Shown here piece by piece: positions 51,227 to 51,750 of a stretch of DNA of 64,000 nucleotides. The first letter of the stretch is position 1. Each line of letters begins with the position of its first letter. The position numbers and the translations under genes were made by a program. The stretch lies in assembly GCF_009914755.1 (NCBI RefSeq), contig NC_060936.1; one strand, given 5' to 3'. Below the pieces are notes generated by a model, which made no database searches, was not told the origin of the DNA, and saw only the letters and a program-made list of their open reading frames with translations. The stretch is from the human T2T-CHM13v2.0 reference genome, Homo sapiens.

Positions 51227-51750
51227 GAAGGCCCTGGGTATTAGAAAGAATTTAGGATTTTCTTGATATTTGCCTGGCTTTTGAGATTTCCCTGGAGCTA
51301 GGCAGTATGTTCCTGACCCTGAGAGGCAGGCATATTTCCTAGCCTTGCCCTCGCCAGCGATTTGCTCACCAGTCCTCCTCTGGTAGAGATACAGTCCTTT
51401 TCCTTCTTCAGGGGCAAGGGGGAAAGTCTGTCCTGTGACGAAAAGCTGGGACAACGGTGATCCTGGGAAGGCATGGGAGCTCTGGACTAGAAATCCAGGG
51501 GATGGCAAAGACTTGAGTTTTCTCCCAAACTAGTTGTGTGACTTGGGCACGTCTTCTACCTTCTCATGCTCTAGTTTCTTCTCTACGTTTTTATCATTCC
51601 TAAATTGGCGGACAAGTCACTGGTGAGGGCAAAGCTAGGAACTGTTACTGCTTCTCAGGGTCAGGAACATTCTGCCTAGGTCCAGGGAGATCTCGAAAGC
51701 CAGGCAAATATTCAGAAAATTCTAAAATCTTTCTAATACCCAGGGCCTTC
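51227..51750 (+). repeat. Long non-Alu inverted repeat in ESPL1 intron 13 (arms 51227-51356 and 51621-51750)
   Basis: 115/130 Watson-Crick pairs, no gaps. Confidence 0.96.

What the first reader, a model, noticed from the sequence alone, without database searches (positions are those of the whole stretch)
51227..51750. ESPL1 intron 13 folds into a 130-bp non-Alu duplex with strand-biased G-U wobble pairs
Seen: arms 51227-51356 and 51621-51750 pair without gaps, 115/130 Watson-Crick. Of the 8 transition-type differences, 7 give G-U pairs in the sense pre-mRNA and only 1 gives A-C, whereas neutral decay should be roughly symmetric. The stem starts 24 nt after the donor and ends 89 nt before the acceptor, reducing a 637-nt intron to about 113 nt of open path while sparing the splice signals. 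I see no TSD or known TIR. Inference: a selected RNA structure affecting splicing or intron retention of separase, an ADAR/Staufen substrate, or an endo-siRNA source. The count is small, so the bias is suggestive only.
Basis: partly seen in the sequence, partly recalled or inferred. Interest (0 to 1): 0.74.

Follow-up and report, generated by a model that had tools for sequence, protein, structure and literature searches.

The report
Non-Alu hairpin in separase intron 13
A short intron of the human separase gene carries a real 145-base inverted repeat that should fold into a long RNA hairpin, but it looks like a neutrally decaying local inverted duplication, not a selected structure.

Summary
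Arms 51227-51356 and 51621-51750 pair without gaps: 115 Watson-Crick, 7 G-U, 1 A-C and 7 transversion mismatches of 130. The repeat extends to 145 nt (51227-51371 / 51606-51750), where the ratio falls to 9 G-U: 4 A-C. The 637-nt intron folds at -334.9 kcal/mol, z -18.7.

The arms are not Alu. No other copy was found in the T2T genome at the tools' sensitivity, and there is no target-site duplication. The 234-nt spacer holds a MIR-type SINE core fragment at 51512-51581.

The G-U bias is not special. The 24 other long inverted pairs in ESPL1 (Alu pairs) show 267 G-U: 169 A-C, or 61%, on the same strand. ESPL1 introns are G+T-rich at 52.2%. This fits the known transcription-associated A>G over T>C asymmetry (PMC2927911). 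Against a 0.6 background, 7 of 8 gives one-sided p = 0.11, and pair-breaking transversions are not depleted.

My best reading is a local inverted duplication, roughly 30-75 Myr old if neutral. It passively forms intronic dsRNA and is probably an ADAR substrate. No cross-species, editing or duplex-read data could be reached. Interest is low.

The parts
51083..51202 (+). ESPL1 exon 13 (upstream exon)
   Evidence: Hub annotation (NM_012291.5). The sequence read ends ...CAGAAG before GTATTT.
51203..51839 (+). ESPL1 intron 13, 637 nt. The donor is GTATTT, which lacks G at +5. The acceptor has a long pyrimidine tract ending in CAG.
   Evidence: (sequence) and the hub annotation. Whole-intron fold -334.9 kcal/mol, z -18.7.
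51227..51371 (+).
   Evidence: Its only other match in the genome is the right arm, 88% over 138 nt.
51372..51605 (+). Spacer/loop, 234 nt
   Evidence: A whole-genome DNA search finds only itself.
51512..51581 (+). Core fragment of a MIR-type SINE inside the spacer. A looser model extends it to 51468-51581, envelope 51448-51605. The family name is recalled, not given by any tool.
   Evidence: The 20-mer 51530-51549 has 208 genome matches at <=2 mismatches against 1 for the reversed control. Profiles built de novo from genome copies hit here with E 8e-14, 1e-11 and 2e-9.
51606..51750 (+).
51751..51839 (+). Unpaired 3' part of the intron, 89 nt, with candidate branch sites (CTGAC near 51799-51803, CTTAC near 51807-51811) and the pyrimidine tract. 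The MFE predicts a local fold of the G-rich start against the pyrimidine tract.
   Evidence: sequence; fold. The branch-site assignment is inferred from consensus and is not tested.
51840..52011 (+). ESPL1 exon 14 (downstream exon)
   Evidence: Hub annotation.

Best explanation
A single-copy local inverted duplication sits inside ESPL1 intron 13. A segment of about 145 bp is present twice in opposite orientation, separated by 234 bp that contain an older MIR-type SINE core fragment. The two arms have since diverged by ordinary neutral substitution. The excess of G-U over A-C mismatches in the sense RNA is the footprint of the transcription-associated mutation asymmetry that affects the whole gene: A>G exceeds T>C on the non-template strand, giving G+T-rich introns. 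It is not a sign of selection for pairing. In the pre-mRNA the arms must fold into a long imperfect hairpin of about 145 bp that loops out 524 nt and leaves both splice sites free. The most likely consequence (inferred) is passive. The hairpin would be bound and hyper-edited by ADAR1 like an intronic inverted Alu pair, then removed and degraded with the intron, with at most a mild effect on splicing. Shown here: the repeat, its fold, its single-copy status at the tools' sensitivity, the MIR core in the spacer, and the gene-wide G-U background. Inferred: the duplication mechanism (fold-back or template switching), the age, neutrality, and ADAR editing.
For: (1) The repeat and its fold are shown. 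Arms alone cofold at -239.0 kcal/mol in sense and -222.9 in antisense.
(2) No family of copies was found. Whole-genome DNA searches with the element, the left arm and the spacer return only the locus and its other arm.
(3) A terminal 20-mer at <=3 mismatches gives 250 matches against 99 for the control. None of the 28 non-self loci fetched extends beyond about 20-42 nt. Five of those 28 belong to an unrelated dispersed repeat.
(4) An internal 18-mer at <=2 mismatches gives 257 against 129, and again 0 of 28 fetched loci extend (best 43 nt at 79%).
(5) There is no TSD of 5 nt or more.
(6) Arm-to-arm K2P distance is 0.126 over 130 nt and 0.155 over 145 nt. That is too recent for an ancient transposon. 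From recalled knowledge, a DNA transposon young enough to match would have many similar copies, and none was found.
(7) The spacer's SINE core belongs to a family that is old by recalled knowledge, so the arms' common ancestry appears younger than the sequence between them.
(8) Neutral background: 24 other long inverted pairs in ESPL1 give 267 G-U: 169 A-C (61%). Randomly chosen disjoint subsets give 0.55-0.64, median 0.59.
(9) ESPL1 introns are 52.2% G+T over 17,361 nt.
(10) PMC2927911 (Background and one Results section read) states that [A>G]/[T>C] > 1 along mammalian transcripts on the non-template strand and that this yields an excess of T and G.
(11) G-U is 7 of 15 (47%) of all mismatches here against 267 of 627 (43%) in the Alu pairs. 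Transversions are 7 of 15 against 191 of 627.
(12) 4 of the 20 mismatches are CpG-decay sites.
Against: No orthologous sequence from any other species could be reached, so the age, the polarity of the changes and neutrality are not shown directly. Taken alone, 7 of 8 is nominally skewed (one-sided p = 0.035 against 0.5). The 24 control pairs share Alu copies and are not independent; the disjoint subsets hold at most 7 pairs. The whole-genome search scores only its best first-look candidates, and only 28 of about 250 pattern matches per pattern were examined, so an ancient low-copy repeat family is not excluded. No Dfam or RepeatMasker library was available. Which arm is the copy could not be decided: neither the arms nor the downstream flank resemble the missing SINE tail. 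The placement that spares the splice signals fits selection equally well, although it also fits simple survivorship.
Confidence: 0.66

Rival explanations
1. A selected RNA structure. The hairpin is maintained because looping out 524 nt shortens the effective intron to about 113 nt. This would tune splicing or retention of separase intron 13, which has a donor lacking G at +5, or provide a regulated ADAR or dsRNA-binding-protein site.
For: The predicted structure is very stable. The stem starts 24 nt after the donor and ends 89 nt before the acceptor, leaving the signals free. The 130-nt core has 7 G-U: 1 A-C. The sense arms are 16 kcal/mol more stable than the antisense arms. Looping-out structures that affect splicing are an established class (PMC8052449; search listing and abstract seen).
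Against: The G-U excess equals the gene-wide background of about 0.6. It drops to 9:4 over the full repeat. Pair-breaking transversions are not depleted, at 7 of 15. ESPL1 does not occur in the 5 held supplementary files of the conserved-structure catalogue paper, although the full catalogue is probably not in those files. No paper was found on intron 13 of ESPL1 (0 papers). The HNRNPH1 eCLIP peaks reported in ESPL1 lie in introns 1 and 6, not intron 13 (PMC13039110, passages read).
Confidence: 0.09
2. A relic of a palindromic non-autonomous DNA transposon (MITE-like, with long terminal inverted repeats) that inserted into the intron and decays neutrally.
For: The overall architecture fits: two long inverted arms around a short middle, about 524 bp in total. 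No repeat library could be consulted, and ancient low-copy families would escape the searches used.
Against: No other copy was found. 0 of 28 + 28 fetched pattern loci extend. There is no TSD. Arm divergence of 0.13-0.15 implies a date at which active families left many similar copies (recalled knowledge). The middle holds an older SINE core, which a young element would not carry unless it had captured it.
Confidence: 0.08
3. An older inverted repeat, of whatever origin, whose arms have been kept similar by intrachromosomal gene conversion. In that case the arm divergence under-reports its age.
For: Closely spaced inverted repeats can undergo arm-to-arm conversion (established for larger palindromes; recalled). 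The mismatches are unevenly spread: the first 23 bp are perfect, and there are clusters at 51330-51335 and 51358-51368.
Against: At 145 bp the arms are short for efficient conversion, and they are already 12-14% diverged. No test was possible without outgroups.
Confidence: 0.1
4. A source of small RNAs: an endo-siRNA hairpin locus or an unannotated miRNA precursor.
For: It is a long near-perfect hairpin, with a longest uninterrupted WC+GU run of 32 bp.
Against: There is no Rfam match at E <= 1 over 51000-52000 on either strand. The duplex is intronic and far longer than a pri-miRNA stem. Processing of long hairpins into siRNAs is weak in human somatic cells (recalled). No small-RNA data could be consulted.
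Confidence: 0.03

Closest known systems
Intronic inverted Alu pairs (IRAlus)
   Same: Both have two inverted copies within one transcript that form an intramolecular dsRNA of 140-300 bp at 80-91% complementarity. ESPL1 itself has many. Both show the same sense-strand G-U excess. By recalled knowledge these are the main ADAR1 substrates and can influence splicing and back-splicing.
   Different: The arms here are not Alu and occur nowhere else in the genome at the sensitivity used. The spacer is only 234 nt, and the whole structure sits inside one 637-nt intron.
Small local inverted duplications made by fold-back or template-switching replication errors (recalled class)
   Same: A unique segment is present twice in inverted orientation with a short spacer, with no TSD and no dispersed copies.
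   Different: The mechanism is inferred only. The junctions cannot be inspected for microhomology without the ancestral sequence, and the source arm is undetermined.
Conserved long-range pre-mRNA structures that loop out intron sequence (PCCR catalogue, PMC8052449)
   Same: Complementary intronic segments bring the splice sites closer; here 637 nt becomes about 113 nt of open path.
   Different: Those are defined by cross-species conservation and are usually 10-30 bp long. Here conservation is untested, the duplex is 145 bp, and its mismatch pattern equals the neutral background.
Palindromic non-autonomous DNA transposons (MITEs, MER-type elements)
   Same: The architecture is palindromic and the size is about 0.5 kb.
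   Different: No copies, no TSD and no recognisable terminal motif were found.
MIR SINE (name recalled)
   Same: Spacer segment 51512-51581 matches the core of a dispersed family: 208 against 1 control matches for its 20-mer, and a de novo profile gives E 2e-9.
   Different: Only the spacer matches. The arms do not resemble the family's tail: 564 of 1000 and 204 of 1000 shuffles score as well.

Membership tests
Palindromic DNA transposon / MITE | Multiple dispersed copies in the genome | tested here: not met
   Whole-genome DNA searches return only the locus and its own other arm. 0 of 28 and 0 of 28 fetched pattern loci extend beyond the seed. Sensitivity is limited, so ancient low-copy families are not excluded.
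Palindromic DNA transposon / MITE | Target-site duplication flanking the terminal inverted repeats | tested here: not met
   The longest direct repeat across the flanks within +/-12 nt of either boundary is 4 nt.
Palindromic DNA transposon / MITE | Match to a curated repeat consensus (Dfam/Repbase) | not testable with these tools
   No repeat library is held. The window and locus files carry no soft-masking.
Inverted Alu pair | Arms homologous to Alu | tested here: not met
   The intron has no match longer than 13-23 nt to the rest of the window, which holds 50 Alu-head motif matches (the motif was typed from recall).
MIR SINE | Match to the family's conserved core | tested here: met
   This applies to the spacer only. 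The 20-mer gives 208 against 1 control matches. Profiles from 29 and from 102 genome copies hit 51434-51585, 51468-51581 and 51512-51581.
MIR SINE | Arms derived from the SINE's 3' half | tested here: not met
   In local alignment to the de novo tail consensus, 564 of 1000 shuffles reach the right arm's score and 204 of 1000 the left arm's. An earlier cruder consensus gave 270 and 264 of 500.
Selected / conserved pre-mRNA structure | Cross-species conservation with compensatory substitutions | not testable with these tools
   No other eukaryotic genome is held (one search states the genome has no relatives here).
Selected / conserved pre-mRNA structure | Excess of pair-preserving over pair-breaking differences beyond the neutral background | tested here: not met
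   The G-U share of transitions is 7 of 8 (9 of 13 over 145 nt) against a background of 0.61, giving p 0.106 and 0.35. G-U is 7 of 15 of all mismatches against 267 of 627.
ADAR substrate (long dsRNA) | Intramolecular duplex of tens to hundreds of bp, largely paired | tested here: met
   The duplex is 145 bp with 125 WC + 9 G-U pairs and a longest WC+GU run of 32 bp. The centroid structure keeps the stem. This is a prediction only.
ADAR substrate (long dsRNA) | Observed A-to-I editing | not testable with these tools
   No editing database is held. The library searches ESPL1+ADAR+intron (4 papers) and ESPL1+RNA editing (7 papers) listed nothing about this intron (listings only).
miRNA / known structured RNA family | Match to an Rfam covariance model | tested here: not met
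   0 matches at E <= 1 over 51000-52000, both strands.

The most novel reading that the evidence does not exclude
The hairpin is a lineage-specific structural module of the separase pre-mRNA that has come under selection. By looping out 524 of 637 nt it would let a weak-donor intron splice efficiently. Alternatively, when ADAR or a dsRNA-binding protein engages it, it would detain the intron, coupling separase output to the dsRNA-editing state of proliferating cells.
Probability: 0.08. Interest if true: 0.6.

Novelty: new member of a known kind. Interest (0 to 1): 0.2.

Why it matters
If my reading is right, this is one more intronic inverted repeat. It is unusual only in being built from single-copy sequence instead of Alu, and in sitting within a short intron of an essential mitotic protease. 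Its practical value is as a caution: a G-U over A-C excess in the sense strand of a transcribed inverted repeat is expected from transcription-associated mutation bias. In this gene the background is about 60:40, so the excess cannot on its own be read as selection for RNA pairing. If the minority reading were true, it would be a clean, testable case of a young non-repeat hairpin controlling splicing of a cell-cycle gene.

Tried and rejected
(1) I thought by eye that the right arm was the 3' half of the SINE whose core lies in the spacer, which would make the left arm the copy. To test this I built profiles of the family from genome copies: 29 loci, then an iterative search of 320,644 held bases giving 78, 98, 173, 287 and 366 hits in rounds 1-5. 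From round 3 on the model's 3' end drifted into poly-T/Alu-like sequence. I therefore trimmed round 3's alignment of 173 rows to the family's own columns and kept the 102 rows with at least 60 residues. The arms do not match the tail, and neither does the flank after the right arm (719 of 2000 shuffles as good). I rejected the idea as unsupported.

(2) The excess of near-matches to the terminal 20-mer (250 against 99) looked like a repeat family. It comes from an unrelated dispersed repeat, seen in 5 of the 28 loci, which are mutually 77-86% alike over 345-400 nt. I recall this repeat as an L1 5' region. None of these loci shares more than about 24 nt with the arm.

(3) Tail k-mers among the 29 SINE copies were too poorly conserved to serve as an anchor. 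I went on with loci already held.

(4) Direct nhmmer and BLAST of the intron against about 150 kb of other human DNA found nothing.

(5) Literature. ESPL1 + 'intron 13' returned 0 papers. ESPL1 + intron retention returned 15 papers. Of those I read passages of two. PMC2780703 concerns rs6580942, which lies in exon 2 at 38438-38450. PMC13039110 reports HNRNPH1 peaks in introns 1 and 6. ESPL1 is absent from the held supplements of PMC8052449 (5 files) and PMC10691357 (1 file). The supplements of PMC10573301 could not be read and might bear on RIC-seq duplex support.

Full report
**Observation.** The sequence and the repeat finder show one inverted repeat in 51000-52000. Its arms are 51227-51371 and 51606-51750: 145 nt, 86% complementary, 234 nt apart. 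Over the full 145 nt the counts are 125 WC, 9 G-U, 4 A-C and 7 transversions, so the 15 inner positions left out of the core carry 2 G-U and 3 A-C.

By the hub's exon table the intron is 51203-51839 (637 nt) and is intron 13. The stem starts 24 nt after the donor and ends 89 nt before the acceptor.

As RNA, the sense intron folds at -334.9 kcal/mol. Twenty dinucleotide shuffles give -207.0 +/- 6.9, so z is -18.7 and 0 of 20 fold as well. The centroid structure keeps the long stem. The antisense strand folds at -300.5, z -17.4. The two arms alone cofold at -239.0 in sense and -222.9 in antisense.

**What the arms are.** They are not Alu. BLAST and nhmmer of the intron against the rest of the window and 28 other 3-kb human loci give only 13-26-nt matches, although the window has 50 matches to an Alu head motif at <=3 mismatches, 14 of them in ESPL1 (motif recalled). 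Rfam gives no match at E <= 1.

Whole-genome searches of the T2T assembly return only the locus itself and, for the arm, its own partner at 88% over 138 nt. This held for the 524-nt element, the left arm and the spacer. That search scores only its best first-look candidates, so I added two pattern searches:
- The terminal 20-mer at <=3 mismatches has 250 matches against 99 for the reversed control. None of the 28 non-self loci fetched shares more than about 20-42 nt with the element. Five of them belong to an unrelated dispersed repeat that explains the excess.
- An internal 18-mer at <=2 mismatches has 257 matches against 129. None of the 28 fetched loci extends; the best is 43 nt at 79%, and nhmmer finds nothing.

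No direct repeat longer than 4 nt flanks the element within +/-12 nt of either boundary. At this sensitivity the arms are therefore single-copy sequence present twice, without the marks of transposition.

**The spacer.** The 20-mer 51530-51549 has 208 genome matches at <=2 mismatches against 1 for the control. Profiles built from the fetched copies hit the spacer at 51434-51585 (E 8e-14) and at 51468-51581 (E 1e-11, envelope 51448-51605). After iteration and trimming the hit is 51512-51581 (E 2e-9). The consensus that emerges is the one I recall as MIR; the name comes from memory and not from a tool.

I suspected that the right arm was this SINE's own 3' half. The test does not support that. 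564 of 1000 shuffles reach the right arm's score, 204 of 1000 the left arm's, and 719 of 2000 that of the flank after the right arm. The source arm therefore stays undetermined.

**Origin and age.** The Kimura two-parameter distance between the arms is 0.126 over 130 nt and 0.155 over 145 nt. At 1.0-2.2e-9 substitutions per site per year (recalled range) the arms would have last shared an ancestor about 29-77 Myr ago if they evolve neutrally.

This undercuts the transposon reading from both sides. An ancient element should have far more diverged arms. By recalled knowledge, a DNA transposon active that recently in primates would have left many similar copies, and none was found. The SINE family in the spacer is, again by recalled knowledge, older than that date.

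The simplest account is a local inverted duplication around pre-existing sequence, by fold-back or template switching (mechanism inferred). Later arm-to-arm gene conversion is a variant I cannot exclude.

**The strand bias.** For an inverted repeat in a transcript, A>G and C>T on the sense strand create G-U, while T>C and G>A create A-C. Any excess of A>G over T>C on the non-template strand therefore predicts more G-U without selection.

PMC2927911 (Background and the section on strand asymmetries read) states that [A>G]/[T>C] is above one along mammalian transcripts, that [C>T]/[G>A] is above one only in the first 1-2 kb, and that the outcome is an excess of T and G in introns.

ESPL1 shows this. 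Its introns are 52.2% G+T over 17,361 nt. As an internal control I took the 25 longest of the 260 inverted pairs that the repeat finder reports in ESPL1 and dropped the hairpin itself. The remaining 24 are Alu pairs:
- They give 267 G-U, 169 A-C and 191 transversion mismatches on the sense strand, so 61% of transitions are G-U.
- 21 pairs have G-U > A-C, 2 are equal and 1 is lower.
- The pairs reuse Alu copies, so I also drew disjoint subsets. There were 358 distinct sets of at most 7 pairs, and the G-U share ranged 0.55-0.64 with a median of 0.59.

Against p = 0.6, 7 of 8 has a one-sided p of 0.106 and 9 of 13 has 0.35. Only against 0.5 is 7 of 8 nominally low, at 0.035.

Selection for pairing should also remove transversions. 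They are 7 of 15 mismatches here against 191 of 627 in the Alu pairs. G-U is 47% of all mismatches here against 43% there. Four of the 20 mismatches are CpG-decay sites. The bias is what this gene's mutation pattern predicts.

**How it most likely works.** In the pre-mRNA the 145-bp stem should form as soon as the right arm is transcribed. Its longest WC+GU run is 32 bp. Both splice sites, the candidate branch sites and the pyrimidine tract stay outside it.

By analogy with intronic inverted Alu pairs (recalled knowledge), such a duplex is bound and edited by ADAR1 and is discarded with the intron. Any gain in splicing efficiency from shortening the open path to about 113 nt is possible but untested.

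**Literature.** I found nothing that describes this structure:
- ESPL1 + 'intron 13' returned 0 papers.
- ESPL1 + ADAR + intron returned 4 papers and ESPL1 + RNA editing returned 7. Nothing relevant appeared in the listings.
- Of the 15 ESPL1 + intron-retention papers, I read passages of two. One concerns an exon 2 SNP and the other concerns introns 1 and 6.
- ESPL1 is not in the held supplements of two catalogues of long-range RNA structure. A third could not be read.

**Verdict.** The feature is real and the counts are correct, but the inference of selection is not supported. I file it as a new example of a known kind: an intronic inverted-repeat dsRNA that arose by local inverted duplication. 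My confidence is about two thirds. The decisive cross-species, editing and duplex-read data were out of reach here.

Noticed in passing
window 55125-55311 and 56644-56830: An inverted Alu pair (187 nt, 91% complementary) brackets the 989-nt exon 18 (55502-56490). By recalled knowledge this arrangement favours back-splicing into a circular RNA.
   Followed up: no
window 51751-51832: In the MFE of the intron, the G-rich stretch just after the right arm pairs with the pyrimidine tract near the acceptor. This could mask the tract, but such purine/pyrimidine pairings are often predicted by chance.
   Followed up: no
window 51410-51427 and 51751-51762: G-runs (GGGG, GGGGG, GGG, GGGG) lie in the spacer and right after the right arm. 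They are hnRNP H/F-type motifs (recalled). The published HNRNPH1 eCLIP peaks in ESPL1 are in introns 1 and 6 only (PMC13039110).
   Followed up: partly
window 38438-38450 (exon 2): This is the site of rs6580942. PMC2780703 reports it as associated with alternative splice-site use in ESPL1 and as having an extreme Fst. It is unrelated to intron 13.
   Followed up: yes
L013, L027, L029, L031, L034 (genome loci): A dispersed repeat shares a chance near-match of 20-24 nt with the outer end of the arm. Five of the 28 fetched loci are 77-86% alike over 345-400 nt. I recall the sequence as an L1 5' region.
   Followed up: partly
window 37854-63351: All 24 long inverted Alu pairs of ESPL1 taken together show 61% G-U among transition mismatches on the sense strand. 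This is a simple within-gene read-out of transcription-associated mutation asymmetry that could be applied genome-wide.
   Followed up: partly
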